A stretch of DNA of 17,525 nucleotides from Nostoc sp. NMS4 (GCF_017115095.1 NZ_JABXKI010000204.1:24494-42018); one strand, 5' to 3'; counted from the first letter of the stretch, positions 460 through 13,959 are shown. The notes: generated from the letters alone by a model not told the origin. Numbers and translations are program-made.

Positions 460-2595
460 ATGGAATCACAAACATCTCCTTTAACATTTTCTTTAATATC
501 TGATAAATATTGGCAAATACTAAAGCGACGTTGGACACCAGGTTTAGCTGTCTTTATCCCAGTGTTTATATTTTTAGTGCTGACTTCATATTTAAAAAAA
601 CCTGCTTATGAGGCAGAGGGAAAGCTACTGTTTCAAAGGACGAATACGATCTCCTCGCTGACGGGAGTAGGAGAGGGGATAGGGAAGCTAGAAGCAGTAG
701 CACAGGATCAGAAAACCAATCCTTTAAACACAGAAGCAGAAATTATTCAGTCAGTCCCTTTAGTGCAACAAACTATAGATAAACTTGCCTTGAAAAACAA
801 TCAAGGCGTAGCCTTAAAACCCAAAGAATTCCTGAAACAGTTAACAGTAAAAGATATTAAGGGTTCTGATATTCTAGAAGTTTCTTACAAGGACAGGGAT
901 GCTAAAAAATCTGCTGAAGTAGTTAATACGGTAATAAATATCTATTTAGAACACAACGTATCTTCTCGAAGAAAAGAAGCAGCATCAGCCCGTAAATTTC
1001 TTCAAAAGGAATTACCAAAAGCTGAATTAATTGTCAGAAAAGCAGAAAGTGAACTAGCAAAGTTTAAAGATAAGAACAAAGTTGTTTCCCTGCAAGAAGA
1101 AACAACTAACTCACTAGATGTGATTGCAGACTTACAAAAGCAATCTAGCCAGGTTCAATCTCAAATTGCCAATCTCAATGCTCAGTCTCAAGATATCCGT
1201 AAACAATTAAATATGAATTCAAAACAGGCGTTTGCTCAGACTTCTCTGAGCCAATCTCCTGGGTTGCAGGATATTCTCAAAGAAGTCCAGCAATTAGAGT
1301 CTCAACTTGCAGTTAGGCGAACTGTTTTGCGGGAATCACACCCTGAAATTATTACCTTAAAAAATAAGTTAGAAGCCTTAAAAAAGATAATACAACAGCG
1401 AACAACACAGGTTTTAGGGACAAATCAAGCACAATTGAATGGTAATTTGCAGATTGGGGCTTTACAACAGCAACTTACTGCAAACTTGATTGGATTAGAG
1501 TCAACTCGTATGGGTTTAGTTAGCCAAGCTGTAACTTTATCCAAATTACAAGCAGTCTACAAACAAAGATTGAAAACTTTGCCCAGATTGGAACAACAAC
1601 AGCGTCAGCTAGAACGCAAAGTACAAGCATCACAATCTACATATTCACTTTTGTTACAAAAATTGCAAGAGAGCCAAATTGCAGAAAATCAGAACGTCGG
1701 TAATGCCAGTTTGATATCTGAAGCCCAAATTCCTGACCAGCCGATTTCTTCTAATATGATTTCGTACTTGAGTTCAGGTTTAGTCGCTGTTCTAGCTGCT
1801 TTGGCGACTATATATATTTTGGAAGTAAGAGATAAAACCATTAAGACTGTTGATGAAGCGAAGGAATTAATAGGATTAACTTTATTAGGTGTAATTCCTG
1901 CCTTTAGCAAGCCTCAAAAGTCTGATTTAAAGGATGAAAAGCAAGACTTATCTACCTCAAAATTTGTTGAGAGAGAAACTTCTCACTCCCCAATTAATGA
2001 AGCTTATCGGATGTTGCGGGCAAATTTGGAGTTTAAACGTGGTGATAAAGAGTTAAAAGTTATTGTTGTCACTAGTTCTGTGCCTAAAGAAGGTAAATCA
2101 ACAGTAGCAGCTAATTTAGCAATAGTAATGGCACAGATGGAATATCAAGTTTTGCTAGTGGACGGGGATTTCCATCATCCAGTTCAACATCAAATTTGGG
2201 AATTAAGTAATAATCAAGGTCTGAGTAATCTGATTCTGGAAGAAGCCCAAATCAGCACTGTTGTCAAAAAAGTTATGAATAATTTAGATGTCCTCACTAC
2301 TGGAGTAGTACCTCCATCGCCAGCATCTCTCCTTGATTCAAAACGGATGGCTTCTTTGATTCAAAGTTTTGCTAACAACTATGATTTCGTAATTATTGAC
2401 ACTCCTTCATTAAATGTTGTCGCCGATGCAGTCACTTTGGGTCAAATGACTGATGGCGTTTTATTGGTAGTTCGTCCGGGGGTAGTTGATTCTGTTCAGA
2501 CCACTGTTGCTTGTGAAATTTTAGAAAAATCTGGTCAGAATGTCTTGGGACAAGTTATTAACGCAGTAGTTGAGGAAAAATTCGCCAAAATATGA
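460..2595 (+). CDS. Polysaccharide co-polymerase / BY-kinase-like protein (Wzc/GumC/ExoP family): Wzz-type periplasmic coiled-coil domain between two TM helices, plus a C-terminal P-loop ATPase domain
   Basis: 711 aa. An N-terminal TM helix (LAVFIPVFIFLVLTSYL) is followed by a long Q/L-rich coiled coil and a second TM helix (LSSGLVAVLAALATIYIL). The CpsD/CapB-like ATPase has Walker A VTSSVPKEGKST, Walker A' VLLVDGDFHHP and Walker B DFVIIDTPS. Confidence 0.9.
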   Translation: MESQTSPLTFSLISDKYWQILKRRWTPGLAVFIPVFIFLVLTSYLKKPAYEAEGKLLFQRTNTISSLTGVGEGIGKLEAVAQDQKTNPLNTEAEIIQSVPLVQQTIDKLALKNNQGVALKPKEFLKQLTVKDIKGSDILEVSYKDRDAKKSAEVVNTVINIYLEHNVSSRRKEAASARKFLQKELPKAELIVRKAESELAKFKDKNKVVSLQEETTNSLDVIADLQKQSSQVQSQIANLNAQSQDIRKQLNMNSKQAFAQTSLSQSPGLQDILKEVQQLESQLAVRRTVLRESHPEIITLKNKLEALKKIIQQRTTQVLGTNQAQLNGNLQIGALQQQLTANLIGLESTRMGLVSQAVTLSKLQAVYKQRLKTLPRLEQQQRQLERKVQASQSTYSLLLQKLQESQIAENQNVGNASLISEAQIPDQPISSNMISYLSSGLVAVLAALATIYILEVRDKTIKTVDEAKELIGLTLLGVIPAFSKPQKSDLKDEKQDLSTSKFVERETSHSPINEAYRMLRANLEFKRGDKELKVIVVTSSVPKEGKSTVAANLAIVMAQMEYQVLLVDGDFHHPVQHQIWELSNNQGLSNLILEEAQISTVVKKVMNNLDVLTTGVVPPSPASLLDSKRMASLIQSFANNYDFVIIDTPSLNVVADAVTLGQMTDGVLLVVRPGVVDSVQTTVACEILEKSGQNVLGQVINAVVEEKFAKI

Positions 2596-2662
2596 AAGGG
2601 CTGGAGCTGTTATTTATGAGAAGGTTTTTGTTGTAATATCATGGGTTTACCTCACCCTCAAT

Positions 2663-2685
2663 CCCTCTCCTTATAAAGGAGAGGG
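2663..2685. terminator. Hairpin between convergent genes (CCCTCTCCTT-ATA-AAGGAGAGGG); candidate bidirectional terminator or a small dispersed repeat
   Basis: A perfect 10-bp stem with a 3-nt loop lies between the Wzc-like stop (2595) and the minus-strand CPBP stop (2757). It has no strong T-tract, so terminator function is inferred only from its position. Confidence 0.4.
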
Positions 2686-2756
2686 AAGCTAGAGACAGGA
2701 TAAAGTTTTGCATCTTATTTAATCCATGTTCCTAAGTAATCAGCCGAACATGATAT

Positions 2757-3353
2757 TTATTTTTTAATTGCCGCCAGTTGCCCCATTTTCCAGAAATAGC
2801 TAGAAATCCAATTCGTAATAATATGAGCGACAATCGGCACTAATAAGTTTCCGGTCAGCAAGGCGCTATATGCTAATATCATCCCAACAATTGTTGCCCA
2901 AATTACATAAGGCCATTGTTGGGAACCGCTAAAATGCAAAATTCCAAAGCAAAGACTGGATACAATTACAGCTGTCAAATCGGAGCCTAGAGCGGACAAC
3001 ATCACACCTCTAAATAATAATTCTTCACTTAACCCTGGTAGTAACCCTAGCCAAATTAAATCTGGTAAAGCTAAAGGCTTGAGTACTACTTCTAGGTAAT
3101 AATCTGCACTTTTACGATAGGCAGTCCACAGGCGATAAGTTAAGCCACTTAAGGCGGTGATGAGGAATCCCAATCCTACACCTAACAGCAACTCTCTTTG
3201 GTTCAAGTCCCAAGAAAATAACGAAAAGTTGCCTAAGTATAACGAAAGTTTGGCGACTATCAACAAAATGATTGCAGTCGCTCCCATCGCCCCAAGTATT
3301 TGGATGCGCGTCAGGTATGGAATTTCTGGCTCTTGCTTTTGTTGTTCAATCAC
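2757..3353 (-). CDS. CPBP family intramembrane glutamic endopeptidase (CAAX protease / bacteriocin-processing family)
   Basis: 198 aa and multi-TM. All three family motifs are present: SEELLFRG (EExxxR), FGILHF (FxxxH) and AHIITNW (HxxxN). Confidence 0.85.
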   Translation of the reverse strand: MIEQQKQEPEIPYLTRIQILGAMGATAIILLIVAKLSLYLGNFSLFSWDLNQRELLLGVGLGFLITALSGLTYRLWTAYRKSADYYLEVVLKPLALPDLIWLGLLPGLSEELLFRGVMLSALGSDLTAVIVSSLCFGILHFSGSQQWPYVIWATIVGMILAYSALLTGNLLVPIVAHIITNWISSYFWKMGQLAAIKK

Positions 3354-3444
3354 GGGTTTTTAAGAAAGAGGGGGCATTGGGCATAGGGGGTAGGGAGATG
3401 AGGGAGATGAGGGAGATAAACAAAACTCCTAACTTCTAACTCCT

Positions 3445-3472
3445 GTACAGACGCGATTAATCGCGTCTGTAC
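3445..3472 (-). terminator. Perfect 28-bp palindrome GTACAGACGCGATT|AATCGCGTCTGTAC immediately downstream of the 3475..4533 gene
   Basis: It has 14+14 bp of perfect dyad symmetry and starts 3 nt after the minus-strand stop codon. It lies upstream of the CPBP start (3353). CTCCT direct flanks and a GAGATGAGG x2.5 tandem (about 3396-3418) are nearby. It could be a terminator, an operator or a dispersed repeat. Confidence 0.45.
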
Positions 3473-3474
3473 TC

Positions 3475-4533
3475 CTAACTTTTAATTACTGACTGCAAAG
3501 GTAATAATTTGGGACGGAGAGCGTTGGGATTGATGCCTGTTTTATGTGCTACTAATACACCTACTGCTTCTAAATATGAGTTTACCTGTATAGATTTTAT
3601 CCCCAGGGGTTGGGGAGGAACTTTTATCAGAGTTTTATTTTCTTCTACTGTAATTATTTGGCATCGTTTTTGGCTTAAACTCAGTAAGGCACTGCTACCA
3701 CAAGCAGTTGCAGGTGCGATCGCAGCATCAACTTCATCAGCCCAAATATCTTCTGGCTGCGATCCGATTGCTCCTCTCTCTATTATAAATTGTGGGGCGC
3801 GACTTAATCCGACAAGGACGCAGGGCAAAAAGGTATAACCTAATTCTTCGGCGGCGGAACGGGGAGATAAATCAGGTTGTGGAGGTTCGCTCAAAAGGGC
3901 GGGAGAATGAGCGCAAGGAATTTGAAAGGTTCGCAATAGCAAATGGCTAATTACGGCTTCTGCACCCGCTAAAGGATCTACGCCTTCACCGTGACGATAT
4001 TTTTGTACTGCTTCTTCATCTATATCATCGGGGAAACGGGCAACAACTGCGATCGCTTCTGCCCCCGCTTTTTTAATTAATATCTCGGCTGCCCGTAATA
4101 AACTATCTGGGTTGCCAATTGTTCCCCAACTCGCTCCCGATGCTGTAGTCCGTAATTCTACGTTTAATGGTGCATCTGTAATTACATAATCTGTTAGGGT
4201 TAATCCCAATGTTGCTCTAACTGCATCGGCTGCTTGTATATGTCGTAGCCGTAACTCTGGCTCTATGCCTTGGTCTAAAAGCAAACCTACCTTGTTGGTG
4301 CGAACTGGACGCAAACCCCAGCACCCAGAGGCGAATTTGTCAAGCCCATAACCTTCAACATAGAAAGCATTGGGGATATTCCAATACAAACTTGCGCCAT
4401 TCAAGACATTGGGGTGAGTAATTAGGCGATCGCAAACCTGTGATATAACTCTAGCAACAGGCAAAGCATCTCCTGCGTAACCCCCAATGGCAGCCCCAAC
4501 GCCTGTTGGTACAATTAATATAGCTGTGTACAT
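3475..4533 (-). CDS. Conserved cyanobacterial/plastid-lineage protein of unknown function (I believe DUF3326 family)
   Basis: A 352-aa uninterrupted ORF with normal composition. The N-terminus MYTAILIVPTGVGAAIGGYAGDA matches my recollection of the DUF3326 signature. The family name is from memory and unverified. Confidence 0.8.
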   Translation of the reverse strand: MYTAILIVPTGVGAAIGGYAGDALPVARVISQVCDRLITHPNVLNGASLYWNIPNAFYVEGYGLDKFASGCWGLRPVRTNKVGLLLDQGIEPELRLRHIQAADAVRATLGLTLTDYVITDAPLNVELRTTASGASWGTIGNPDSLLRAAEILIKKAGAEAIAVVARFPDDIDEEAVQKYRHGEGVDPLAGAEAVISHLLLRTFQIPCAHSPALLSEPPQPDLSPRSAAEELGYTFLPCVLVGLSRAPQFIIERGAIGSQPEDIWADEVDAAIAPATACGSSALLSLSQKRCQIITVEENKTLIKVPPQPLGIKSIQVNSYLEAVGVLVAHKTGINPNALRPKLLPLQSVIKS

Positions 4534-4536
4534 ATT

Positions 4537-4558
4537 GAGTGCTGAGTACTGAGTGCTG
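4537..4558. repeat. STRR-like heptamer tandem repeat GAGTGCT GAGTACT GAGTGCT G
   Basis: Three consecutive 7-nt units lie just upstream of the 3475..4533 gene start. An inverted partner array (the complement reads GAGTGCTGAGTAGTGAGC) sits at 4644-4661. Confidence 0.8.
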
Positions 4559-4648
4559 TTAGCGGATAGCTAAGGTTTAGCCCGTGCTGAGTTAGGAGTT
4601 TGGAGTTATTCTCATTACGCCCTTTTGTTTGCCGATATACCCTGCTCA

Positions 4649-4828
4649 CTACTCAGCACTCTTTGTCACCACGGCTTCAATTGTAGCTTTTTGTTTGTTA
4701 ACGTCCACAGAGGTAACTGCCCAACGTAGGGGTTCGCCTTGTTTCTTCAACTCTGTTTCAATTACTTGTAGTAACTCTGCGGGAGTTTCTTGTAAATCAA
4801 CTTCTGCGGTAATAAAGTGAGTCGTCAT
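4649..4828 (-). CDS. Small conserved-looking protein, 59 aa (MTTHFITAEVDLQETPAELLQVIETELKKQGEPLRWAVTSVDVNKQKATIEAVVTKSAE); not in the supplied ORF track
   Basis: Hand translation of the minus strand gives an ATG at 4828 and a TAG at 4649-4651. The composition is balanced and protein-like, whereas the antisense track ORF 4629..4820 (+) is Cys/Ser-rich and implausible. The ORF probably fell below the track's length cutoff. Confidence 0.5.
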   Translation of the reverse strand: MTTHFITAEVDLQETPAELLQVIETELKKQGEPLRWAVTSVDVNKQKATIEAVVTKSAE

Positions 4829-4922
4829 CTTGATAAATTCTCTTGGTTTGTAGTTTCTAGAATAGCTGATGTCCTCTGCGATGAAATACTTATAATATTA
4901 TTGATCAGATTTGGTAATGTTA

Positions 4923-4975
4923 GTGAACAGTTATTCAGTCATGAATAATCATCCGATATACTGATAACTGTTCAC
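4923..4975 (-). terminator. Stem-loop (GTGAACAGTTAT ... ATAACTGTTCAC) directly downstream of the ferredoxin gene
   Basis: A 12-bp perfect inverted repeat at 4923-4934 / 4964-4975 with a 29-nt loop. It begins 4 nt beyond the minus-strand stop at 4979. Confidence 0.4.
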
Positions 4976-4978
4976 AGA

Positions 4979-5299
4979 TTATTTGTCTTTGCCAAATTGT
5001 AACTGATAAACGATGTCTTCCTTTTCTGTCTTAAGTTTCAAATCAGAAAGGGGTTTGGCAACACAAAGCAATACGTAACCTTGCTTTTGCAAATCTGGAC
5101 TAACGCCCATACCATCAGTTTGATCTACAGTTCCCTCAGATAGTTGACCGGCGCAAGTTGTACAAACACCTGCATTGCAAGAACTCGGCAGTTCCAAGCC
5201 AGCAGCATCGGCAACTGATAAGATCGTTTCATTTTCAGGAACTTGCAAGGTATGAATTTTGCCTTGGTGATCGATTTCTACGGTGTAAATTTTGGGCAT
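4979..5299 (-). CDS. Plant-type [2Fe-2S] ferredoxin with a short C-terminal extension
   Basis: Cluster ligands are present as SSCNAGVCTTCAG...LLC (Cx4Cx2C...C). The track start at 5305 is a TTG; the first ATG (MPKIYTVEI...) is at 5299. Confidence 0.9.
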   Translation of the reverse strand: MPKIYTVEIDHQGKIHTLQVPENETILSVADAAGLELPSSCNAGVCTTCAGQLSEGTVDQTDGMGVSPDLQKQGYVLLCVAKPLSDLKLKTEKEDIVYQLQFGKDK

Positions 5300-5492
5300 A
5301 TACAAAACAAGTGTGATGCAACGGACAAAGGTATTAGTTTATCTGAATTAGTTAAAAATATCCAGATGTTACTATAAAAGTTTAGGTTAAAGAGGAATAA
5401 TTATAGCAACTAATTCTGAACAAGTTATAGATTAGTAATATTATTTACTATACAATACACAAATAAATTAGTTAAATTTGCTTACTATAAAT

Positions 5493-5984
5493 ATGCGCGA
5501 TCGCGTTTCTTTAGAGACTGTATCTGTAAGTCTGCCTTTTGGCATTGGTTCCATGTCTTGGAAAGTTGACACCACACAAAAGAAGGCGGCTTGGTCGCTT
5601 TATGTGGAATTGGTGACACGCATTGCTGTACAACCTTTGGAAGTTGACCAAGGTTTGGTACGAGAAGCGATGAACTCTCTTTATAGTTTATTTGGTACAA
5701 CCCGCGAAGTTCTCAAAGCCGCCGGGCCGGATGTGGGTGCTTCTCGTGATTCTGTGGGGGGAATTGCGATCGCTGTGTTAAATAATGGGTTAAGGCCATT
5801 TTTGGCTAAATGGCATCCCTTGTTGCAAGCATGGGAAGGTAGACGACCTGTGGGGGTGAGTCCCAAAGAACATGAGCAGAGTTGGTCGGAGGAACCCAAG
5901 TTGCGAAGTGAGTTGGAAGTTTTGCGCGGTGGGTTGGAAGATTACGCTAAGGCTTTGGCAAAAATTGCAGGCGTGGAGGAGTGA
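5493..5984 (+). CDS. Hypothetical soluble, probably alpha-helical protein (163 aa from the ATG; 168 aa from the TTG at 5478), co-operonic with the TIR-GUN4 gene
   Basis: Clean ORF with no TM segment and no catalytic motif I recognise (…KKAAWSLYVELVTRIAVQPL…LRPFLAKWHPLLQAW…). Its stop TGA (5982-5984) lies 3 nt before the next ATG, and the downstream gene's Shine-Dalgarno sequence is embedded in its last codons. Confidence 0.75.
   Translation: MRDRVSLETVSVSLPFGIGSMSWKVDTTQKKAAWSLYVELVTRIAVQPLEVDQGLVREAMNSLYSLFGTTREVLKAAGPDVGASRDSVGGIAIAVLNNGLRPFLAKWHPLLQAWEGRRPVGVSPKEHEQSWSEEPKLRSELEVLRGGLEDYAKALAKIAGVEE
5975..5981 (+). promoter_or_regulatory. Shine-Dalgarno sequence GGAGGAG for the TIR-GUN4 gene
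   Basis: GGAGGAG lies 6 nt upstream of the ATG at 5988, inside the 3' end of the upstream ORF. This arrangement indicates translational coupling. Confidence 0.6.
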
Positions 5985-5987
5985 TAA

Positions 5988-7193
5988 ATGCCAAAAGATG
6001 TTTTCCTTTGCCACAATAGCAAAGAAAAAGCACAGGTAGAAAAAATTAGAGCGCAGCTATTACAAGAAGGAATAGATGCTTGGTTAGATAAGTATGATTT
6101 TGAGCCATTTCGACGTTGGCAAGACCAACTTGAAGAAATTATTCCTCAAGTCAAAGCTGTAGCTGTATTTCTCGGTTCCTCTGGTGTAGGGCCGTGGGCA
6201 GATATCGAAATGAAAGAGTTTCTTGTTGAATTTGCGAAGAATCATAAGCTTCGCATAGGCTTAGTTATTCTTCCTGGATGCCCTGATAAACTTATAGATA
6301 CAGTTCCGAGATTCTTAAAAGGCTTTCATTGGGTAGATTTTCGGCTACAAAATCCCGATCCAATGGAACAGTTGATTTGGGGTATTACTGGACAAAAGCC
6401 AAAAACACAACCCATCACTTTATCTCAACTGCCTCAAAAACCTTCAGACAGAAGACAATTTTTGAAATGGGTAGGTTGGGGAAGTCTAGGCTTAGTAACA
6501 TCAGTCGTGGGTGCAGGGATTTTGAGTCAAGGAGGAAATCTGCCCGTTGTAACAAATAATAAACCTACAAACACTGAATCATCTCAGACTGCAATACCAG
6601 AAACAAAGCCTACTAGCAGCATCCCTCTAAGGGAGCAACGGGAAGAACGCAACTCACTTGAATCAGAGAGAGGCATTAACTATACCAAACTACGCGACTT
6701 ATTAGTAGCAAAAAACTGGAAGGAAGCCGACAAAGAAACCTATCGGGTGATGCTTCAGGCTGTAAAGTATGAATATGGCAACTATTTCACCTCAGAGGAA
6801 CTCTTTAAATTTCCTTGCACTGACTTACGCACAATTGACGGCTTATGGGTAAGATACAGCAATGGACACTTTGGCTTCAGCGTCCAGAAGGAAATTTACT
6901 TGAGCGTTGGCGGTAAAGCTGACGGCAAGGATTACGAAGAAGCCTGGAAAAAGTTTGGCGATCGCGTAGGATGGAGAGTGAATAGTAGTTGGATAAATTA
7001 CTCTGACGTAAATTATGATACAGCCTCGCCAAAAGGACACCTCCCTTACAGATTAGATCATCGGAGTGCAGAGGAGGTAGAAGATATACTAGGTACACAA
7101 AAGAAGCATGGAGGTTTAATACCAAACTCGGCGGTGGAAGTATTACCATTTTCTTCTCTCGCATCGAGACTTGTAAACTGTAACACGCCCTAA
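5988..7193 (+). CDS. TIR domain / Tat-like RRxFLK single-pass TM segment / GUN4 (porphyrin-binding) domain fusion protein
   Basis: 401 aa. Residues 3-135 form a TIR_2-like domain (DVFLCHNSKEK..., ...GPWADIEMKEF with candidate catalytic Glu74 at nt 6207-6209). Residues 154-180 read SDRRQFLKWVGWGSLGLVTSVVGAGIL. Residues ~229-335 carry GUN4 domain signatures (LLVAKNWKEADKET..., FPCTDLRTIDGLWVRYSNGHFGFSVQKEIY, WKKFGDRVGW). Confidence 0.88.
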   Translation: MPKDVFLCHNSKEKAQVEKIRAQLLQEGIDAWLDKYDFEPFRRWQDQLEEIIPQVKAVAVFLGSSGVGPWADIEMKEFLVEFAKNHKLRIGLVILPGCPDKLIDTVPRFLKGFHWVDFRLQNPDPMEQLIWGITGQKPKTQPITLSQLPQKPSDRRQFLKWVGWGSLGLVTSVVGAGILSQGGNLPVVTNNKPTNTESSQTAIPETKPTSSIPLREQREERNSLESERGINYTKLRDLLVAKNWKEADKETYRVMLQAVKYEYGNYFTSEELFKFPCTDLRTIDGLWVRYSNGHFGFSVQKEIYLSVGGKADGKDYEEAWKKFGDRVGWRVNSSWINYSDVNYDTASPKGHLPYRLDHRSAEEVEDILGTQKKHGGLIPNSAVEVLPFSSLASRLVNCNTP

Positions 7194-7197
7194 CGGG

Positions 7198-7221
7198 AAG
7201 TCAAAAGTCAAAAGTCAAAAG
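7198..7221. repeat. STRR-like heptamer repeat (AAGTCAA)x3 plus a partial unit
   Basis: Three perfect 7-nt units start 5 nt after the TIR-GUN4 stop. A degenerate copy (GGAAGTCAAAATTCAAAAGG) follows the stop of the 8542..8937 gene at about 8949-8968. Confidence 0.85.
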
Positions 7222-7222
7222 C

Positions 7223-7513
7223 TTATTTTCCTAGCTTTGCTTTAGTTGTTACGATTGATTTAGCAATAATTTTAATTAATTGTTCACACTCATCTAAAAT
7301 ATTTCTAACTTGTGCCTCAGTCATCATTTCTGATTTAATTAACAGCTTCAACCAGTATTTTGTTTCTTTTGCTTCTTTTAGTGCTATTGATTGCTTGCTA
7401 ATAAAATTCCTATCACTCTCAGCAGACTGAGACTCTTCAATATTTGCACCAATTGATGTCCCTGATCTGAATAACTGAGCAGCTAATTGTTTGAAAAGTC
7501 GTTGGCTGTGATT
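7223..7513 (-). pseudogene. 5'-truncated four-helix-bundle protein gene (23S rRNA intervening-sequence protein family)
   Basis: The minus-strand frame is open for 96 codons (...RLFKQLAAQLFRSGTSIGANIEESQSAESDRNFISKQSIALKEAKETKYWLKLLIKSEMMTEAQVRNILDECEQLIKIIAKSIVTTKAKLGK*). This matches helices 2-4 of the family (SIGANIxE, E.KYWL). There is no start codon and helix 1 is missing. The frame breaks at the edge of the repeat element starting at 7526. Confidence 0.6.
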
Positions 7514-7525
7514 TTAATTGCATTT

Positions 7526-7780
7526 TTACCCCCCTTAATCCCCCCTTAGAAAGGGGGGAAACCAGAAAATCTAGTTCCCTCCCCTTTCCAAGGCTACGGT
7601 GTACACACAAGTCCTCTTACCCCCCTCAATCCCCCCGATGCATTGGGGGGAAGCCGGAAATCTAGTTCCCTCTCCTTTGCAAGGGGAGGGTTAGGGTGGG
7701 GTAATTCAACAGACTGATTGTGATTCGATAACTTGTGTATACACGGTAGCCTTTGCAAGGGGAGGGTTAGGGTGGGGTAA
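7526..7780. mobile_element. MITE-like nested-palindrome dispersed repeat, copy A
   Basis: 20-bp cores CTACGGTGTACACACAAGTC (7594-7613) and ACTTGTGTATACACGGTAG (7731-7749) form an inverted pair. They enclose G/C-run hairpins (TTACCCCCC..CCCCCC / GGGGGG.., CTAGTTCCCTC.CCTTTGCAAGGGGAGGGTTAGGGTGGGGTA). Outer arms of the same type flank the pair. Related copies lie at 10357-10743 and 13734-13959. Confidence 0.75.
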
Positions 7781-7782
7781 AG

Positions 7783-7923
7783 CGCTTCTATGACATTTTT
7801 CAGCGCCTTACTCAACATTTTCGGGTCGCCTTCTTCTAAAATAACTTCAATATAAGCTGCGGCTTCTAGTGGATTTTTTAAGTCTTGAATCAGTTTTTCA
7901 TGATAGCTTGTACTTTTAGGCAT
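7783..7923 (-). pseudogene. 3'-truncated HigA-type antitoxin (addiction-module antidote protein) remnant
   Basis: MPKSTSYHEKLIQDLKNPLEAAAYIEVILEEGDPKMLSKALKNVIEA matches the N-terminal third of HigA/antidote proteins. After that point the frame reads into repeat copy A (YPTLTLPLQ...), so the HTH domain is missing. The track ORF 7594..8037 is a chimera of this remnant and repeat sequence. Confidence 0.6.
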
Positions 7924-8068
7924 GATCTCTACTCCTGTAGTCTTCCCAATATTCCTTGGCTTTGGCAATATCCTTTTCTTGAGTGCTTTTATCACCACCA
8001 CACAAAAGAATAATAACTGTTGATCCTTGCTGTCCAACTTTGCGATCGCTGTAAATCAACAATATACA
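7916..8068 (-). pseudogene. 5'-truncated RelE/ParE-superfamily (HigB-type 'addiction module killer') toxin remnant
   Basis: Hand translation gives ...DRKVGQQGSTVIILLCGGDKSTQEKDIAKAKEYWEDYRSRDHA*. The LLCGGDKSTQ.KDI..A motif is the characteristic C-terminus of this toxin family. The stop overlaps the antitoxin ATG (ATGCCTAA), which is the normal toxin-first arrangement. Only 50 codons remain before an in-frame TAG at 8069-8071. Confidence 0.6.
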
Positions 8069-8109
8069 CTAGCGATGATTGCACTCACCAACAAACTTTA
8101 GTCATCAAT

Positions 8110-8277
8110 GTTACAACATTAACCCTTAAGGTTACAACATTAAGCCTTAAAGCTAGAACATTAAGCCTTAAAGTTACAACATTAACCCTTAAAGCTAGAA
8201 CATTAAGCCTTAAGATTACAACATTAAGCCTTAGAGCCAGAACATTAAGCCTTAAAGTTACAACATTAAGCCTTAAG
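8110..8277. repeat. Tandem array of eight 21-bp units (GTTACAACATTAAGCCTTAAA / GCTAGAACATTAAGCCTTAAA variants) plus a partial ninth
   Basis: Unit boundaries at 8110, 8131, 8152, 8173, 8194, 8215, 8236 and 8257 were verified by hand. Two unit types mostly alternate. HIP1 sites flank the array at 8042-8049 and 8284-8291. Confidence 0.95.
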
Positions 8278-8541
8278 ATTAAAGCGATCGCAGTTAACTA
8301 GAAGTAAAGGTGCGATGTCTACGACGGGCTATGCCTACGCTTATGCAACAATATTGTAGTTTTCGTGCAACTTAAACATAATATTATATTTTTCAAGAAA
8401 TCAACCCTTGGTGATTAAATACCGAAAAATTACGGACATAAGTAAAAAATTTTATTTAAAAGACTGCGCTTTTTGCTGAACCATAATATAGATTAATTGA
8501 GACAAAATAGCTCTGTAAAGCTTTAATATCTGGATAAATTT

Positions 8542-8937
8542 ATGTCTCGAAAAAAACGTAGCTCCCGGATTTTAGAAAAAGCTGAGTTTAGAGTTGCCGG
8601 GCTGAAAGCTATTGATCAAAATATCAGATTTGATGATACTTACAACTTGCAAAATTTGACTCAATTAATAGAAGATTTTCACAATATACTTAATGAGTAT
8701 AACGCTGCTATAGCGATGATTGACTCTTCTAAAACAAAGTTAGATGAGATGGAAAAAAACTTAAATCAGGTTTCAGACAAAATGCTGATGGGAGTTGGTT
8801 TCAAGTATGGCAAAAATAGTAAGGAATATGGACTTGCAGGTGGTGTTCGAGATAGCGATCGTATCCGTAAAAGCAGATTAACACGCTTGAAAGCTAATAC
8901 AGATAAAACATCAGATGAAAAAGCTATAACCGCCTAG
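8542..8937 (+). CDS. Hypothetical protein, 131 aa, predicted coiled coil with basic N- and C-terminal tails
   Basis: ATG-initiated ORF with protein-like composition (MSRKKRSSRILEKAE...; C-terminal RIRKSRLTRLK). A strong hairpin follows it at 9028-9059. I recognise no motif. Confidence 0.6.
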   Translation: MSRKKRSSRILEKAEFRVAGLKAIDQNIRFDDTYNLQNLTQLIEDFHNILNEYNAAIAMIDSSKTKLDEMEKNLNQVSDKMLMGVGFKYGKNSKEYGLAGGVRDSDRIRKSRLTRLKANTDKTSDEKAITA

Positions 8938-9137: not shown

Positions 9138-10058
9138 ATGACCCGTTTTATACATGATAAATTTGCCAAAGACTATCTAGAAGAATTACTAAAAGATTAC
9201 GGAGAAGTCAAGGCATCAGAAAAAGTATCAGGAGAGATTAAAGAAATAGATGTTTTATTCACTCCTGCTAAACAGCAAAACTCGAATTTACAAATACTGG
9301 GTTTACTAGGAAGATTTGCTGAACATCCTGCAATTATAGAACCATACCGCAATCCAGCTTCTACCGATGAAATCTGCGACTGTATTCTTAAATTATTAGA
9401 AATCAAGGCTTTATTGCGACGAGAAGCTAAGGCAAATAAAACCAAACTTCAGGATTCAGAAATTCCCAGATTGTGGGTTCTTACTCCAACCATATCTGAA
9501 ACTAGATTGTCTAGCTTTGGAACTATGCAAAAACCAGGTTGGTTATCAGGAGTCCATTTTCTACCAGATGCTTTGCGGACAGCAATTGTAGCGATACATC
9601 AACTACCCCAAACACCAGAAACTTTATGGTTGAGGCTTTTAGGTAGGGGAAGTGTGCAGTCACAAGCAATTATCGAGTTGCAAGCGTTACCATTAGATTA
9701 TCCATACCAAAAAGCAACTCTTGAATTAGTTTACAACTTGCGGGAAAACTTGAGAGTAAATCAAGAGTTAGAAGCAGATGATAGGGAGTTAATTATGCAA
9801 TTAGAACCACTTTATCAAAGAGACAGAGAACAAGCCAAAGAAGAAGGAAGGCAAGAAGGAAGGCAAGAGGGAAGGCAAGAAGGAAAACAAGGCTTAATAC
9901 TGCGTCTACTAAATCGCCGTATTGGTGAAATTGATGCATCATTAATCGAACGAATTCAAGGTTTATCGCTCGAAGAATTAGAGAATTTAGGAGAAGCATT
10001 ACTAGACTTTTCTAGTGTTGCTGATTTAGAAACTTGGTTAAACCAACAATCAATCTAA
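9138..10058 (+). CDS. Cyanobacterial multi-copy family protein: N-terminal Rpn/YhgA-like (putative PD-(D/E)XK nuclease / 'putative transposase') region plus a C-terminal DUF4351 domain
   Basis: 306 aa. The N-terminus MTRFIHDKFAKDYLEELL...EIKEIDVLFTP...AIIEPY and the C-terminus LILRLLNRRIGEIDASLIERIQGLSLEELENLGEALLDFSSVADLETWL match my recollection of this expanded cyanobacterial family. Domain names are from memory. Confidence 0.75.
   Translation: MTRFIHDKFAKDYLEELLKDYGEVKASEKVSGEIKEIDVLFTPAKQQNSNLQILGLLGRFAEHPAIIEPYRNPASTDEICDCILKLLEIKALLRREAKANKTKLQDSEIPRLWVLTPTISETRLSSFGTMQKPGWLSGVHFLPDALRTAIVAIHQLPQTPETLWLRLLGRGSVQSQAIIELQALPLDYPYQKATLELVYNLRENLRVNQELEADDRELIMQLEPLYQRDREQAKEEGRQEGRQEGRQEGKQGLILRLLNRRIGEIDASLIERIQGLSLEELENLGEALLDFSSVADLETWLNQQSI
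9843..9890 (+). repeat. Four tandem 12-bp units (GAAGGAAGGCAA) encoding the (E)GRQ-EGRQ-EGRQ-EGKQ linker
   Basis: Units lie at 9843-9854, 9855-9866, 9867-9878 (1 mismatch) and 9879-9890 (2 mismatches). They are in frame within the 9138..10058 gene. Confidence 0.9.
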
Positions 10059-10085
10059 TTCATTTCGATTGATAAAGAGTTAATT

Positions 10086-10325
10086 ATGCGACTAGAACCA
10101 CTTTATCAAAGAGACAGAGAACAAGCTATACAGGAAGGAAATAAACAACGAGAACAACGTCTAGTTATACGTCAACTCAATCGCCGTATTGGTGAGATTG
10201 ATACGTCATTAATCGAACGAATTCAAGGTTTATCGCTCGAAGAATTAGAGAATTTAGGAGAAGCATTGCTAGACTTTTCTAGTGTTGCTGATTTTGAAAT
10301 TTGGTTAAACCAACAATCAATCTAA
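10086..10325 (+). CDS. Stand-alone DUF4351 cassette (79 aa), a tandem duplicate of the 3' end of the preceding gene; may be a gene fragment
   Basis: MRLEPLYQRDREQA...RRIGEIDTSLIERIQGLSLEELENLGEALLDFSSVADFEIWLNQQSI is near-identical to residues ~219-306 of the upstream protein. Nucleotide identity extends into both flanks (GAGTTAATTATG... and ...TAATTCATT). Confidence 0.55.
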   Translation: MRLEPLYQRDREQAIQEGNKQREQRLVIRQLNRRIGEIDTSLIERIQGLSLEELENLGEALLDFSSVADFEIWLNQQSI

Positions 10326-10356
10326 TTCATTATTACTATAGCTGGGAAATCGAATT

Positions 10357-10743
10357 ATTACCCCCCTTTATAAGGTGGGAAACAAGAAAATCCGGTTCCC
10401 TCCCCTTTATAACTACCGTGTATACACAAGTCTGAAATACCTGATTAACCAGGGTTTTACCCCACCCTAACCCTCCCCTTGCAAAGGGGAGGGAACTAGA
10501 TTTTTTGGTTTCCCCCCAATGCAAGTAGTAATGCAACTCGCCAAGGCGAAAAACAAGGGAGGGAACTAGATTTTTCGGTTTCCCCCCAATGCAAGTAGTA
10601 ATGCAACTCGCCAAGGCGAAAAACAAGGGAGGGAACTAGATTTTCCGGTTTCCCCCCTTTGCATCGGGGGGATTAAGGGGGGTAATTCGACTTGTGTATA
10701 CACCGTAGCCCCTTTATAAGGGGAGGGTTAGGGTGGGGTAAAA
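10357..10743. mobile_element. MITE-like nested-palindrome dispersed repeat, copy B (core inverted relative to copy A, internally expanded)
   Basis: Inverted 20-bp cores CTACCGTGTATACACAAGTC (10413-10432) and GACTTGTGTATACACCGTAG (10689-10708). Outer arms are CCCTCCCCTTTATAA / TTATAAGGGGAGGG. The interior matches the reverse complement of copy A's interior. Confidence 0.75.
10491..10657. repeat. 70-bp tandem duplication inside repeat copy B (2 full units plus a 27-bp partial third)
   Basis: Units 10491-10560 and 10561-10630 differ at one position (T/C in GATTTTT[T/C]GG). Each unit consists of about 31 bp of element core (GGGAACTAGATTTTT.GGTTTCCCCCC...) plus a 39-bp segment AATGCAAGTAGTAATGCAACTCGCCAAGGCGAAAAACAA. 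Confidence 0.9.
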
Positions 10744-10974
10744 CAATATATGACACATCAATCATGACTTTCCAAACATCCTCTTAGTCCAAGTCGGTGG
10801 ACTAAGTTTTGTGTAGTAGCAAATTCTATTCGCCTCACACTTTTCAAACTTTCAGTATAAAAAAACTTTGCTAATAACCGATTACCAGTAAGGCTTTCAA
10901 TAATAAAAGTAAGCTAAACTTTTATAGCCAAGTATTGCCTAAAAATATTTCATAATTGAAGGGAGAAAATCCCA

Positions 10975-13733: not shown

Positions 13734-13959
13734 GATCCCCCCTAGCCCCCCTTAAAAAGCTACGGTGTACACATCTTGGTAATGAAGCCCCAATCCTGGA
13801 TTTACCCCCCTTAATCCCCCCTTGTAAAGGGGGGAAATATCCGGTTCTCCCCCTTGCCAAGGGGGAGTTAGAGGGGGTCAGAAAGACTTGTGTGTACACT
13901 GTAGCCCTTAAAAAGGGGGGAACTTCTAAAGCCCCCTTTTTAAGGGGGTTGGGGGATCT
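13734..13959. mobile_element. MITE-like nested-palindrome dispersed repeat, copy C
   Basis: The terminal inverted repeat is GATCCCCCCTAGCCCCCCTTAAAAAG... on the left and, read on the complement, GATCCCCCAACCCCCTTAAAAAG on the right. Inner cores are CTACGGTGTACACATC (13760-13775) and GACTTGTGTGTACACTGTAG (13885-13904). The central hairpins are TTACCCCCCTTAATCCCCCC..GGGGGGAAA. Confidence 0.75.

What the first reader, a model, noticed from the sequence alone, without database searches (positions are those of the whole stretch)
5478..7193. Two-gene operon: unknown helical protein plus a TIR-TM-GUN4 fusion, a candidate tetrapyrrole-sensing TIR signalling or defence module
The downstream protein fuses an N-terminal TIR domain to a single TM segment and a C-terminal GUN4 domain. 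The TIR domain carries DVFLCHNSKEK... and GPWADIEMKEF, with a Glu in the position of the NADase catalytic glutamate of bacterial and plant TIRs. GUN4 is the fold that binds protoporphyrin IX / Mg-protoporphyrin in Mg-chelatase regulation. TIR domains in prokaryotes are overwhelmingly NAD+-consuming or signal-generating effectors of immune systems such as Thoeris, CBASS-associated systems and Avs/NLR-like systems. Coupling one to a porphyrin-binding sensor domain suggests activation by a tetrapyrrole cue, such as cyanophage-perturbed pigment metabolism, heme, or photo-oxidative damage. The upstream 163-168 aa gene has no motif I recognise. It is translationally coupled: its TGA is 3 nt from the ATG, and the GGAGGAG SD lies inside its 3' end. 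That suggests a stoichiometric partner acting as a regulator, an immunity protein or a co-sensor. I do not recognise this pair as any named defence system.
Basis: partly seen in the sequence, partly recalled or inferred. Interest (0 to 1): 0.85.

Follow-up and report, generated by a model that had tools for sequence, protein, structure and literature searches.

The report
Constant partner gene for swappable TIR
A small, very conserved protein of no known family sits directly in front of a TIR immune-type enzyme fused to a GUN4-like domain, and the same small protein accompanies TIR genes across at least five bacterial phyla, so it is probably an undescribed core part of a TIR-based defence module.

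Summary
The two-gene operon is real. ORF A runs 5493-5984 (163 aa from the ATG that homologues use). ORF B runs 5988-7193 (401 aa) and has a TIR domain with an invariant catalytic Glu plus a GUN4-fold domain. Three details need correcting. The "TM" is a weak, Tat-signal-like linker found only in one subclade. The GUN4 domain is a paralogue lacking the bilin-binding LxNxLR motif. TIR-GUN4 fusions, and the idea that GUN4 senses tetrapyrroles in immune proteins, are already published.

The main result concerns ORF A. It matches nothing in Pfam, NCBIfam, PADLOC, PHROGs, PDB or Foldseek, yet it is a widespread TIR partner. A TIR gene lies in 74 of 79 cyanobacterial loci, in about 45% of distant metagenomic loci, and next to it on plasmids of Streptomyces, Vibrio, Photobacterium, Aureispira and rhizobia. 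Its domain is also fused to TIR (both orders), to HTH, to a STAND NTPase and to a patatin phospholipase.

At one syntenic Nostoc site ORF A stays 85-99% identical while the adjacent TIR is swapped among alleles 27-97% identical, with no co-evolution.

Best reading: a Thoeris-like module with a diversifying sensor-TIR and a constant partner that reads or gates TIR output. The biochemistry is untested.

The parts
5493..5984 (+). ORF A: 163-aa constant partner protein, with an N-terminal beta-hairpin and a helical bundle; unannotated family. The TTG at 5478 is an alternative but less likely start.
   Evidence: homologues start at MRDRV; AF2 pLDDT 85; 1419 homologues; 1378 clusters at 50% identity. 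No hit in Pfam, NCBIfam, PADLOC, PHROGs, PDB or Foldseek.
5975..5990 (+). Gene junction: SD-like GGAGGAG (5975-5981) inside the end of ORF A, TGA TAA (5982-5987), ATG of ORF B (5988-5990). The two ORFs are in the same reading frame.
   Evidence: Read directly. The same 3-nt spacing occurs in most Nostoc loci, and spacings of 1-25 nt or overlaps occur elsewhere.
5988..7193 (+). ORF B: 401-aa TIR - linker - GUN4-like protein, 100% identical to a Nostoc sp. NMS4 protein.
5988..6407 (+). TIR domain (aa 1-140). The putative catalytic Glu74 codon GAA is at 6207-6209.
   Evidence: Pfam TIR_2. Glu74 invariant in 170/170. Foldseek matches to NADase TIRs.
6030..6660 (+). Hypervariable cassette (most of the TIR plus the linker). 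Syntenic loci carrying other TIR alleles show no nucleotide similarity here, although both flanks align.
   Evidence: blastn break-points at about 5990-6037 and 6660-6663. (TIR 27-97% identical against ORF A 85-99%).
6450..6524 (+). Tat-signal-like RRQFLKW plus a moderately hydrophobic stretch in the linker (aa 155-179). It is specific to one lineage.
   Evidence: 20 of 187 relatives; coil, pLDDT below 45.
6654..7046 (+). GUN4-like core (aa 223-353, ending in the conserved GHLP). It is semi-conserved between alleles (80-87% nucleotide identity).
7047..7190 (+). Hypervariable C-terminal tail after GHLP (aa 354-401). It replaces the LxNxLR ligand-lid region of true GUN4 and ends in a conserved LxSRxxxC-type helix.
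   Evidence: (A7 consensus).

Best explanation
This is a two-gene TIR-based conflict module, most likely anti-phage, with the same division of labour as Thoeris.

ORF B is the diversifying component. Its N-terminal TIR domain is an NAD+-cleaving enzyme with invariant Glu74. Its C-terminal module, here a GUN4-like domain with a hypervariable tail, acts as the recognition or regulatory module. On a trigger the TIR is expected to assemble and cleave NAD+, producing an ADP-ribose-derived product, depleting NAD+, or both.

ORF A is the invariant component. It is a soluble domain with a beta-hairpin and a helical bundle, and it is functionally tied to TIR enzymes in general rather than to any one TIR allele. 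The most likely role is as a receiver of the TIR product, or a gate acting on the conserved catalytic face of the TIR. It would pass that output to an effector. The effector is fused in some lineages (patatin phospholipase, HTH, STAND). In the stand-alone cyanobacterial form it is unknown.

Shown here: the anatomy, the TIR and GUN4 folds, the invariant Glu, the family-wide and cross-phylum genomic coupling of ORF A to TIR genes, the Rosetta-stone fusions, the swapping of TIR alleles beside a constant ORF A, and the lack of co-evolution.

Inferred: NADase or signal production, the defence function, the direction of information flow between the two proteins, and the nature of the trigger.
For: Coupling. 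63 of 71 genes directly downstream of ORF A homologues carry TIR_2. 74 of 79 genome loci contain a TIR. In distant metagenomic relatives TIR_2 is the most frequent neighbour family on both sides, 25 of 68 downstream and 11 of 63 upstream. Clustering the neighbours of 125 non-syntenic loci finds only the small gene (125 loci) and TIR clusters (85 + 9 loci) recurring. A Chloroflexota MAG has the small gene 37 nt from a TIR gene. Plasmids of Photobacterium, Vibrio, Streptomyces, Aureispira (three tandem TIR genes then the small gene), Mesorhizobium and Sinorhizobium all place it beside TIR genes.

Fusions. The domain is fused to TIR in both orders (P0250, P0342). It is also fused to HTH (P0337, P0361) and to BTAD-STAND (P0359). 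In Mesorhizobium it forms the N-terminus of a patatin phospholipase flanked by ThsB-type TIRs. A candidate Thoeris effector described as 'SLOG Patatin' carries the SLOG sensor in its architecture (bioRxiv 10.64898/2025.12.03.692087, Table S2). A 4x tandem-domain protein lies 62 nt downstream of a TIR-LD_cluster2 gene.

Constant against variable. At the syntenic fdx-acnB site, ORF A is 85-99% identical while the TIR is 27-97% identical, in three to four allele classes. Break-points lie at the start of ORF B and at the GUN4 core. Spearman rho between ORF A identity and TIR identity is 0.08 over 1596 pairs. Several genomes carry multiple copies or tandem cassettes.

TIR competence. Glu74 is invariant, and the fold matches SARM1, AbTir and Cat1.

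Module swapping. GUN4, FGE-sulfatase, septin- and dynamin-like GTPases, HD-CE+HATPase, STAND-TPR, vWA and WD40 all occur behind the same TIR and partner. This matches the sensor and effector repertoire of the conflict systems of multicellular bacteria (PMC7159879, PMC8195603).
Against: There is no biochemical or phage-challenge evidence of any kind.

ORF A has no recognisable ligand-binding or effector fold. In the window it is stand-alone, so if it is a receiver its output is unknown.

The window's flanks are housekeeping genes (ferredoxin, DUF3326, aconitase B), not a canonical defence island.

The gene order (small gene first, tightly coupled) is also the classic antitoxin-toxin layout.

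The TIR scores better against PADLOC bSEFIR (E 3.8e-08) and SAVED-TIR (E 7.1e-06) models than against ThsB (E 0.03). It could therefore be an NAD+-depleting effector and not a signal generator.

The recent systematic Thoeris survey lists none of this TIR family in the stored part of its table. That file was truncated when stored, so this neither supports nor refutes.
Confidence: 0.45

Rival explanations
1. Toxin-antitoxin or abortive-infection logic. ORF A is an antitoxin-like inhibitor that binds the TIR NADase and keeps it off. Infection or stress removes ORF A or out-competes it, releasing NAD+ depletion.
For: The gene order is upstream small gene, 3-nt spacing, with the SD inside the upstream gene, which is the canonical type II TA layout. 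HTH-fused versions of the domain exist, as in many antitoxins. TIR-domain fusions could be auto-inhibited enzymes. The TIR resembles effector-type TIRs in PADLOC. The fusion gene P0391 lies among TA genes.
Against: ORF A and the TIR do not co-evolve (rho 0.08). Nearly identical ORF A proteins sit beside TIRs only 27-38% identical, which is unusual for a specific inhibitor-toxin interface. Arrangements with three or four different TIR genes and a single copy of the domain, and fusion to a patatin effector, fit poorly with a 1:1 antitoxin. Convergent and upstream arrangements also occur.
Confidence: 0.2
2. ORF A is the upstream constant sensor, adaptor or guarded decoy, analogous to EACC1 in the EACC1-caspase two-gene systems. 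It detects a conserved infection cue or is targeted by phage. It then nucleates TIR assembly, and the C-terminal variable domain of ORF B acts as effector or co-sensor.
For: The organisation is identical to the EACC1 system described in PMC7159879: a constant small 5' gene, then a 3' gene with a constant N-terminal enzyme and a variable C-terminus. Extreme conservation of ORF A (at least 70% identity across cyanobacterial orders) would suit a mimic of, or binder to, a conserved host or phage component. Tandem 2-4x versions suggest a scaffold.
Against: Pathogen sensors are normally the fast-evolving parts of immune systems, and here ORF A is the slowest part. Fusion of the domain to output modules (patatin, HTH) places it next to effectors, not at the top of the pathway. 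The lack of co-variation with the TIR again argues against a specific protein-protein nucleation interface.
Confidence: 0.15
3. The module is a tetrapyrrole-gated TIR switch. The GUN4 domain binds protoporphyrin, Mg-protoporphyrin or bilin. Ligand occupancy, altered by cyanophage or by photo-oxidative stress, controls TIR activity. The role could be physiological signalling and not defence.
For: The C-terminal domain is a true GUN4 fold, with best Foldseek hits to porphyrin- and bilin-bound GUN4 structures. The same hypothesis has been put forward for GUN4 domains in cyanobacterial conflict proteins and NACHT proteins (PMC7159879; bioRxiv 10.1101/2022.07.19.500537). The Arg equivalent to the last residue of LxNxLR is retained in the window protein.
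Against: The LxNxLR motif is absent in the window protein and in all 159 relatives checked. This includes the Asn shown to be essential for bilin binding in Chlamydomonas GUN4, and reported as not retained by any member of the paralogue clade in PMC10156173. The corresponding lid region is a hypervariable tail, which is hard to reconcile with an invariant small-molecule ligand. GUN4 is freely replaced by FGE-sulfatase, GTPase, WD40, TPR and other modules in the same cassette. The GUN4 part matches positions 295-428 of the PADLOC model for PD-T4-6. PD-T4-6 is described as an E. coli-derived defence system (PMC11514479), and by my own knowledge E. coli makes no chlorophyll.
Confidence: 0.15
4. 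The adjacency is incidental. ORF A is a conserved cyanobacterial housekeeping protein that happens to lie beside a variable TIR-GUN4 gene.
For: The flanking genes are housekeeping. ORF A is unusually conserved for a defence gene.
Against: There are multiple copies per genome and copies on plasmids. The TIR association is kept in non-syntenic loci and in five or more phyla. The domain is directly fused to TIR.
Confidence: 0.02

Closest known systems
Thoeris systems: ThsB TIR plus a signal-activated effector. Types I-IV are established, and types V-XI plus about 18 further candidate configurations are in bioRxiv 10.64898/2025.12.03.692087.
   Same: A TIR gene is paired with a conserved non-TIR partner. 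There are often several divergent TIR genes per partner (Aureispira, rhizobial plasmids, tandem cassettes). The TIRs diversify while the partner stays constant. The partner's domain is fused N-terminally to a patatin effector; a candidate Thoeris effector is labelled 'SLOG Patatin'.
   Different: The partner matches none of the known receiver or effector domains (SLOG, Macro, caspase-like, DUF2270, DUF6650, SLATT, CMP hydrolase-TPR and others). In cyanobacteria it is a stand-alone soluble protein of about 163 aa with no recognisable killing domain. The TIR protein carries large C-terminal sensor-like modules, unlike most short ThsB proteins. No signal molecule or phage protection has been shown.
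EACC1-caspase two-gene conflict system (Kaur et al. 2020, PMC7159879) and the EACC2 systems (PMC8195603).
   Same: The gene organisation is the same: a constant small 5' gene, then a 3' gene with a constant N-terminal enzymatic domain and a highly variable C-terminal domain. Both are enriched in filamentous or multicellular bacteria and draw on the same pool of variable domains (GUN4, FGS, GTPases, TPR/WD40, STAND).
   Different: [quoted passage not shown] The enzyme is a TIR, not a caspase. There is no sequence relationship.
Cyanobacterial GUN4-domain fusion proteins and bacterial NACHT/NLR-like proteins with GUN4 sensor domains (PMC7159879; bioRxiv 10.1101/2022.07.19.500537).
   Same: A GUN4-like domain is attached to an immune-type enzymatic or NTPase module. 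The TIR-GUN4 architecture is explicitly listed in that literature.
   Different: Those descriptions treat the fusion protein alone. The obligatory upstream partner and the swapping of TIR alleles are not described there.
GUN4 / Ycf53, the Mg-chelatase cofactor (PDB 1Y6I, 1Z3X, 4XKB, 7E2T).
   Same: The core fold is the same (Foldseek E about 1e-8; phmmer E 6e-19) and the GHLP motif is conserved.
   Different: It lacks the N-terminal helical domain of true GUN4. It lacks the LxNxLR motif. The lid region is a hypervariable tail. It is fused to a TIR. It belongs to the paralogue class discussed in PMC10156173.
PD-T4-6, described as an E. coli-derived anti-phage system in PMC11514479 (PADLOC model PDLC04062).
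   Same: Positions 295-428 of the PADLOC model align to the GUN4-like domain at E 6.4e-46. The model of that defence protein therefore includes a GUN4-like C-terminal region.
   Different: Only that region matches. The N-terminal part of the model is not matched, and the N-terminal domain here is a TIR. PADLOC PD-T4-6 hits in S. thermophilus showed only a very mild phenotype, and structural analysis of that protein found a Ser/Thr-kinase-binding-type module (PMC11514479). The label therefore carries little mechanistic information.
Type II toxin-antitoxin modules.
   Same: A small upstream gene is translationally coupled to a downstream, potentially toxic enzyme. HTH-fused relatives exist.
   Different: There is no co-evolution between the partners. 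One domain copy can serve several TIR genes. The domain is also fused to effectors.

Membership tests
TIR domain (NADase-type) | Match to TIR profiles above the curated threshold | tested here: met
   Pfam TIR_2 at 65.1 bits against a cut-off of 28, aa 5-129.
TIR domain (NADase-type) | Flavodoxin-like TIR fold | tested here: met
   AF2 pLDDT is about 85-97 over aa 1-140. Foldseek hits SARM1, AbTir, Cat1 and MyD88 TIRs with TMt 0.64-0.78.
TIR domain (NADase-type) | Catalytic Glu at the WxxxE position at the start of helix C | tested here: met
   Glu74 in GPWADIEM is invariant in 170/170 relatives. That this position corresponds to SARM1 E642 and plant TIR catalytic Glu rests on my own knowledge of those families.
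TIR domain (NADase-type) | NAD+ cleavage or production of cyclic ADPR isomers | not testable with these tools
   Needs an enzyme assay.
GUN4 (Mg-chelatase cofactor orthologue) | GUN4 core domain by profile and by fold | tested here: met
   Pfam GUN4 E 5.7e-40. PDB phmmer E 5.9e-19. Foldseek E 1.7e-8.
GUN4 (Mg-chelatase cofactor orthologue) | LxNxLR bilin-binding motif, conserved in orthologues (PMC10156173) | tested here: not met
   The window has GHLP-YRLDHR where Synechocystis has GHLP-LLNQLR. None of 159 relatives has the motif.
GUN4 (Mg-chelatase cofactor orthologue) | Stand-alone protein of about 230 aa with an N-terminal helical domain | tested here: not met
   The N-terminus is a TIR domain. 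The alignment covers only residues about 84-225 of the GUN4 chains.
GUN4 (Mg-chelatase cofactor orthologue) | Porphyrin binding and stimulation of Mg-chelatase | not testable with these tools
   Needs spectroscopy, ITC or an enzyme assay.
Thoeris-type TIR signalling system | A TIR gene in a conserved operon or neighbourhood with a non-TIR partner gene | tested here: met
Thoeris-type TIR signalling system | Variable or multiple TIR genes per constant partner | tested here: met
   Allele swapping. Three or four TIR genes per partner on Aureispira, Mesorhizobium and Sinorhizobium plasmids.
Thoeris-type TIR signalling system | The partner carries a known signal-binding domain (SLOG, Macro and so on) and a cell-killing effector domain | tested here: not met
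   No profile or fold match for ORF A. An effector domain (patatin) is present only in the rhizobial fusion.
Thoeris-type TIR signalling system | Location in defence islands | tested here: inconclusive
   The window's flanks are housekeeping genes. Other members lie on plasmids or next to TA, SNF2-HNH, PLD or NUDIX genes.
Thoeris-type TIR signalling system | Phage-triggered production of a signal that activates the partner; protection against phage | not testable with these tools
   Needs experiments.
EACC1-caspase two-gene system | A constant 5' gene plus a 3' gene with a constant N-terminal enzyme and a variable C-terminus | tested here: met
   Described in PMC7159879.
EACC1-caspase two-gene system | The EACC1 domain is a single conserved TM helix, and the enzyme is a caspase | tested here: not met
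   ORF A is soluble with no hydrophobic helix. The enzyme is a TIR.
Type II toxin-antitoxin | Cognate partners co-evolve as a specific pair | tested here: not met
   Spearman rho is 0.08. Pairs with ORF A at least 90% identical have a median TIR identity of 38%.
HEPN RNase (considered for ORF A) | Rx4-6H motif in a four-helix HEPN fold | tested here: inconclusive
   An invariant R101-x6-H108 exists. The best HEPN fold hits have E above 1 and TM 0.29-0.37, worse than generic FAT-type bundles. No HEPN Pfam hit appears among 51 members at E up to 10. It is therefore not filed as HEPN.
Tat signal / membrane anchor (considered for the ORF B linker) | An N-terminal RRxFLK motif plus h-region, or a conserved hydrophobic TM helix | tested here: not met
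   The motif is present but internal (aa 155-179). Kyte-Doolittle is about 1.4. It occurs in 20 of 187 relatives only. AF2 predicts coil at pLDDT below 45.
PD-T4-6 (PADLOC) | Full-length match to the model | tested here: not met
   Only model positions 295-428 of 450 match, over the GUN4-like part.

The most novel reading that the evidence does not exclude
ORF A defines a new, pan-bacterial receiver domain for TIR-derived signals, filling the role that SLOG, Macro or SAVED fill elsewhere. The cassette would then be an undescribed Thoeris-type system. It would be the dominant TIR system of filamentous cyanobacteria. A single invariant receiver would serve a population-level library of swappable TIR-sensor alleles, possibly through a new NAD-derived messenger. 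Its stand-alone form would act through an as yet unknown, effector-less or trans-acting mechanism.
Probability: 0.35. Interest if true: 0.8.

Novelty: new variant of a known kind. Interest (0 to 1): 0.62.

Why it matters
TIR enzymes are central to immunity in bacteria, plants and animals. Each new TIR-coupled partner found so far has revealed a new signal molecule or effector mechanism.

This partner family is large: 1378 clusters at 50% identity and at least five phyla. It has no annotation in any profile library, and it is linked to TIR genes by neighbourhood, by fusion and by allele-swapping evidence. It therefore gives a concrete target that can be cloned.

It also offers a natural experiment. 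At one chromosomal site, one invariant partner sits next to TIR alleles 27-97% identical. This can show which parts of a TIR system must co-adapt and which read a universal output.

For cyanobacterial biology, it re-labels many 'GUN4 domain-containing proteins' as likely conflict-system components, not pigment-synthesis regulators.

Tried and rejected
(1) Remote homology for ORF A was sought in Pfam, NCBIfam and PADLOC, PHROGs, a PDB profile search, Foldseek against PDB and BFVD, and a permissive Pfam scan of 51 divergent members. Nothing was significant or recurrent.

(2) HEPN RNase idea. It was prompted by the invariant R101-x6-H108, but fold and profile evidence do not support it.

(3) The TM or Tat anchor was rejected as a family feature.

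(4) DGR-driven variation of the C-terminal tail. The window holds no template repeat and no reverse transcriptase.

(5) A third conserved gene. Only shadow ORFs recur.

(6) A phage-encoded homologue, such as an anti-defence copy. The phage collection has none.

(7) Promoter and terminator evidence for the operon boundaries is at chance level.

(8) The first metagenome locus search with a very divergent alignment failed for lack of a conserved stretch. It was repeated successfully with a narrower alignment.

(9) A search of the 2025 Thoeris survey's TIR table for this TIR family's FLCHNS motif found nothing, but the stored file is truncated.

(10) The PD-T4-6 label was considered as evidence for defence and then down-weighted. 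Only the GUN4-like part of the model matches. PADLOC's PD-T4-6 hits in S. thermophilus gave only a very mild phenotype, and structural analysis there found a Ser/Thr-kinase-binding-type module.


Full report
OBSERVATION

The window contains two co-directional ORFs at the reported place. ORF A can be read from TTG 5478 (168 aa). All close homologues start at the equivalent of ATG 5493 (MRDRV..., 163 aa), so 5493-5984 is the likely gene. ORF B is 5988-7193 (401 aa). Read directly, the junction is GGAGGAG (5975-5981), TGA (5982-5984), TAA (5985-5987), ATG (5988-5990). The two ORFs are also in the same reading frame. Promoter and terminator scans give nothing beyond chance.

ORF B is 100% identical to a protein of Nostoc sp. 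NMS4 annotated 'GUN4 domain-containing protein'. The flanks are housekeeping genes: a Wzc-like kinase, an Rce1-like protease, DUF3326 and a 2Fe-2S ferredoxin upstream, and unknown small ORFs, a DUF4351 gene and aconitase B downstream.

ORF B DOMAINS

Pfam gives TIR_2 (aa 5-129, E 1.1e-17) and GUN4 (aa 226-362, E 5.7e-40). An AF2 model built on 84 homologues has two confident domains (aa 1-140 and about 223-360, pLDDT about 85-97) and a disordered linker (aa 147-214, pLDDT 32-49). Foldseek against the PDB returns GUN4 structures, including porphyrin- and bilin-bound forms (E about 1e-8). It also returns TIR domains, including the NADases SARM1, AbTir and CRISPR-associated Cat1 (E about 2e-4, TM 0.64-0.78). 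Glu74 in GPWADIEM is invariant in 170 of 170 aligned relatives. By my own knowledge of SARM1 and plant TIRs, this is the position of the catalytic Glu.

The 'TM' is RRQFLKW followed by a Gly/Ser/Thr-rich, moderately hydrophobic stretch (aa 155-179, Kyte-Doolittle about 1.4). It resembles a Tat signal peptide placed in the middle of a protein. It is present in only about 20 of 187 relatives, essentially the window's own allele class. It is not predicted as a helix.

The GUN4 domain aligns with true GUN4 (1Z3X, 1Y6I; E down to 6e-19). Where orthologues have GHLP-LLNQLR, the window has GHLP-YRLDHR. [quoted passage not shown] The stretch after GHLP is hypervariable.

ORF A IS THE CONSTANT PARTNER OF TIR GENES

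ORF A has no hit in Pfam, NCBIfam or PADLOC, in PHROGs, in a PDB profile search, or in a permissive Pfam scan of 51 divergent members. Its AF2 model is confident (pLDDT 85): a beta-hairpin (aa 8-25) followed by helices 27-45, 56-77, 88-115, 124-129 and 134-159. Foldseek finds only generic four-helix bundles at E above 0.5 in both the PDB and BFVD.

The family is nevertheless large. It has 1419 homologues in the 5.8-billion-protein set and 1378 clusters at 50% identity. Within cyanobacteria it is strikingly conserved, at least 70% identical across Nostocales, Coleofasciculus, Xenococcaceae, Phormidium and others.

I fetched 79 genome loci. The gene immediately downstream, usually 1-25 nt away or overlapping, carries Pfam TIR_2 in 63 of 71 cases and GUN4 in 55. 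A family HMM finds a TIR in 74 of 79 loci, and two of the five exceptions are truncated contigs. Where the TIR gene is not directly downstream, it lies upstream or convergent.

Behind the N-terminal TIR the C-terminal module is interchangeable. Examples are GUN4, FGE-sulfatase, septin-like and dynamin-like GTPases, HD-CE plus HATPase, AAA_16-TPR (STAND), GUN4 plus DUF1349, vWA and Uma2. Several genomes hold two or three copies with different partners, for example Aphanizomenon flos-aquae FACHB-1287. Some loci carry two cassettes in tandem.

The association is not specific to cyanobacteria.
- A Chloroflexota MAG has the small gene 37 nt from a convergent TIR gene.
- In 80 metagenomic loci holding distant relatives (43-69% identical to the Chloroflexota member), TIR_2 is the commonest Pfam family in both the downstream neighbours (25 of 68) and the upstream neighbours (11 of 63), often with WD40 propellers.
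- Clustering all neighbours of 125 non-syntenic loci shows only two recurrent components, the small gene (125 loci) and TIR clusters (85 + 9 loci). The other 'clusters' are shadow ORFs of the small gene, so there is no conserved third gene.
- In the annotated plasmid collection the family occurs in 12 records and in no phage record.
- Photobacterium has the same layout as the window: small gene, 14 nt, then an 821-aa TIR protein.
- Vibrio has a TIR gene next to the small gene.
- Streptomyces has the small gene between a TIR gene and a NUDIX hydrolase.
- Aureispira has three tandem TIR genes followed 42 nt later by the small gene.
- Mesorhizobium and Sinorhizobium have three or four small TIR genes, ThsB_TIR in the Mesorhizobium genes scanned with Pfam, around a protein of about 860 aa whose N-terminus carries the ORF A domain.

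FUSIONS

The ORF A domain is fused to TIR in both orders (P0250, P0342). It is also fused to XRE-type HTH domains (P0337, P0361) and to the C-terminus of a BTAD-STAND protein (P0359). It occurs as 2-4 tandem copies as well. The 4x protein lies 62 nt downstream of a TIR-LD_cluster2 gene. The STAND fusion lies beside a TIR-NB-ARC-TPR gene.

In Mesorhizobium the domain (aa 34-160, E 4e-15, retaining the VEL.SRIA and RPF.AKWHP motifs) precedes a patatin phospholipase domain. In the recent systematic survey of TIR signalling systems, a candidate effector is labelled 'SLOG Patatin' (bioRxiv 10.64898/2025.12.03.692087, Table S2). SLOG is the signal-binding domain of the type I Thoeris effector (same preprint, introduction). 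The rhizobial protein has the ORF A domain in front of patatin. I read this as a domain swap, and it is the best single clue to the domain's role.

CONSTANT AGAINST VARIABLE

In Nostoc and close relatives the cassette occupies the same site as in the window, between the ferredoxin gene and acnB (26 loci). At that site ORF A is 85-99% identical to the window's. The adjacent TIR domain is 27-97% identical, in three to four allele classes including a very divergent DIFLSHASEDK class. The GUN4 core is 55-75% identical.

At the nucleotide level, about 92% identity runs from the ferredoxin gene through ORF A and stops within the first 0-40 nt of ORF B. Positions 6030-6660 cannot be aligned between allele classes. 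Identity resumes over the GUN4 core (6663-7045, 80-87%), is lost again over the tail (7047-7190), and returns in the 3' flank.

Across 1596 locus pairs, ORF A identity and TIR identity are uncorrelated (Spearman 0.08). Pairs with ORF A at least 90% identical have a median TIR identity of 38%, the same as pairs with ORF A below 80% identical (36%). No template repeat or reverse transcriptase in the window explains the variable tail.

INTERPRETATION

The pattern is a diversifying TIR protein, sometimes several of them, next to one invariant partner. This is the logic of Thoeris, where TIR proteins sense infection and make an ADPR-derived signal that a conserved effector reads (background from bioRxiv 10.64898/2025.12.03.692087).

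The missing co-evolution argues that ORF A does not recognise allele-specific TIR surfaces. It more probably reads something common to all these TIRs, either their product or their conserved catalytic face. Its fusion to output modules (patatin, HTH) places it on the effector side of the pathway.

I therefore favour this sequence. ORF B senses a cue through its variable parts. The TIR assembles and cleaves NAD+. ORF A receives or gates that output. Every step after the domain assignments is inference. What the stand-alone ORF A does once engaged is unknown.

The main rivals are as follows.
- An antitoxin-like inhibitor. The gene order and coupling fit. The lack of co-evolution and the layouts with many TIR genes per single domain copy do not.
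- An upstream constant sensor or adaptor, as proposed for EACC1 in the organisationally identical EACC1-caspase systems (PMC7159879).
This is already proposed in the literature for GUN4 in immune proteins. It is weakened here by the missing LxNxLR motif, the hypervariable lid and the free replacement of GUN4 by unrelated modules.

The strong PADLOC hit of the GUN4 part to the PD-T4-6 model (positions 295-428, E 6.4e-46) shows that GUN4-like domains also occur in the model of an E. coli-derived defence protein. PADLOC PD-T4-6 hits in S. thermophilus showed only a very mild phenotype, so I give that label little weight.

NOVELTY AND SCORE

The TIR-GUN4 architecture and the idea of tetrapyrrole sensing are known. 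I could not find three things in the profile libraries (Pfam 2025, NCBIfam 2026, PADLOC 2.0, PHROGs), in the Aravind-lab papers read here, or in the held part of the 2025 Thoeris survey (its Table S1 is truncated in storage). These are the ORF A family itself, its cross-phylum coupling to TIR genes, and the allele-swapping architecture.

I class this as a new variant of a known kind: a TIR-based two-gene conflict system with an undescribed constant partner. Interest is 0.62. It gives a concrete, testable new component of TIR immunity, but it has no experimental support yet, and an existing large-scale survey may already list it under another label.

Noticed in passing
window 6450-6524 (ORF B aa 155-179): An internal, canonical-looking twin-arginine motif (SDRRQFLKW) plus a Gly/Ser/Thr-rich h-region lies in the middle of a cytoplasmic-type protein, between the TIR and GUN4 domains. 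It occurs only in the window's TIR allele class. It may be a relic of recombination with a Tat-exported gene, or a lineage-specific membrane tether.
   Followed up: partly
window 5982-5990: ORF A and ORF B are in the same reading frame, separated only by TGA TAA. Natural single-polypeptide fusions of the two domains exist elsewhere, in both orders (P0250, P0342).
   Followed up: partly
window 7047-7190 and homologues: The segment between the conserved GHLP and a conserved C-terminal LxSRxxxC-type helix is a hypervariable loop of about 14-35 residues, often Gly/Trp/Val-rich. It sits where true GUN4 has its ligand lid. The window has no DGR template that could explain it.
   Followed up: partly
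window 8110-8276: A 21-nt tandem repeat of 8 copies (about 83% matches) lies inside a probably spurious ORF (8020-8301). Similar repeats occur at the same place in syntenic Nostoc loci.
   Followed up: no
window 7525-7790, 10347-10750, 13800-13920: MITE-like G/C-rich palindromic repeat elements (GGGGGGAAACC...GGTTCCCTCCCC) occur in direct and inverted copies. They bracket the 7.5-10.7 kb segment that holds the unknown small ORFs and the DUF4351 gene. A 70-nt unit repeats 2.4 times at 10487-10657.
   Followed up: no
window 9138-10058 and 10086-10325: A DUF4351 protein gene is followed by an 87% identical partial duplicate of its 3' end (9853-10064 against 10120-10331). The gene also contains a 12-nt AAGAAGGAAGGC repeat encoding (EGRQ)n.
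   Followed up: no
window 7196-7220: A heptamer AGTCAAA is repeated three times immediately after the ORF B stop codon. It resembles the short tandem repeats common in Nostoc genomes.
   Followed up: no
window 16086-16168 and 16205-16287: An 83-nt direct repeat (88% identical) covers the 3' end of an unannotated 138-aa ORF (15777-16193) and the sequence just downstream.
   Followed up: no
L019 6001-7815 and 8862-10343; L016 2224-3762 and 6001-7569; L013, L017, L018, L019, L025 upstream fragments: Some genomes carry two complete small-gene/TIR-GUN4 cassettes in tandem with different TIR classes. Several loci keep 5' fragments of the small gene upstream of the intact copy, which look like scars of cassette recombination.
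   Followed up: partly
L058 (Westiellopsis prolifica) 988-8881: Four separate TIR-encoding ORFs lie within 12 kb around one copy of the small gene.
   Followed up: no
L165 (Mesorhizobium plasmid pMesoLj131a2) 1-7387: The TIR/[domain]-patatin cluster also encodes an Nmad2 (nucleotide modification associated) protein, a thymidylate-kinase-like protein and an NTP pyrophosphohydrolase. This suggests a larger nucleotide-centred conflict island.
   Followed up: partly
Contig of P0337 (JGI 3300050821, no DNA held): The HTH-fused version of the ORF A domain lies in a mobile-element-like region (Mom, Prim-Pol, ParB, RadC, DprA) with no TIR gene nearby. It could be a regulator or a counter-defence copy carried by a mobile element.
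   Followed up: no
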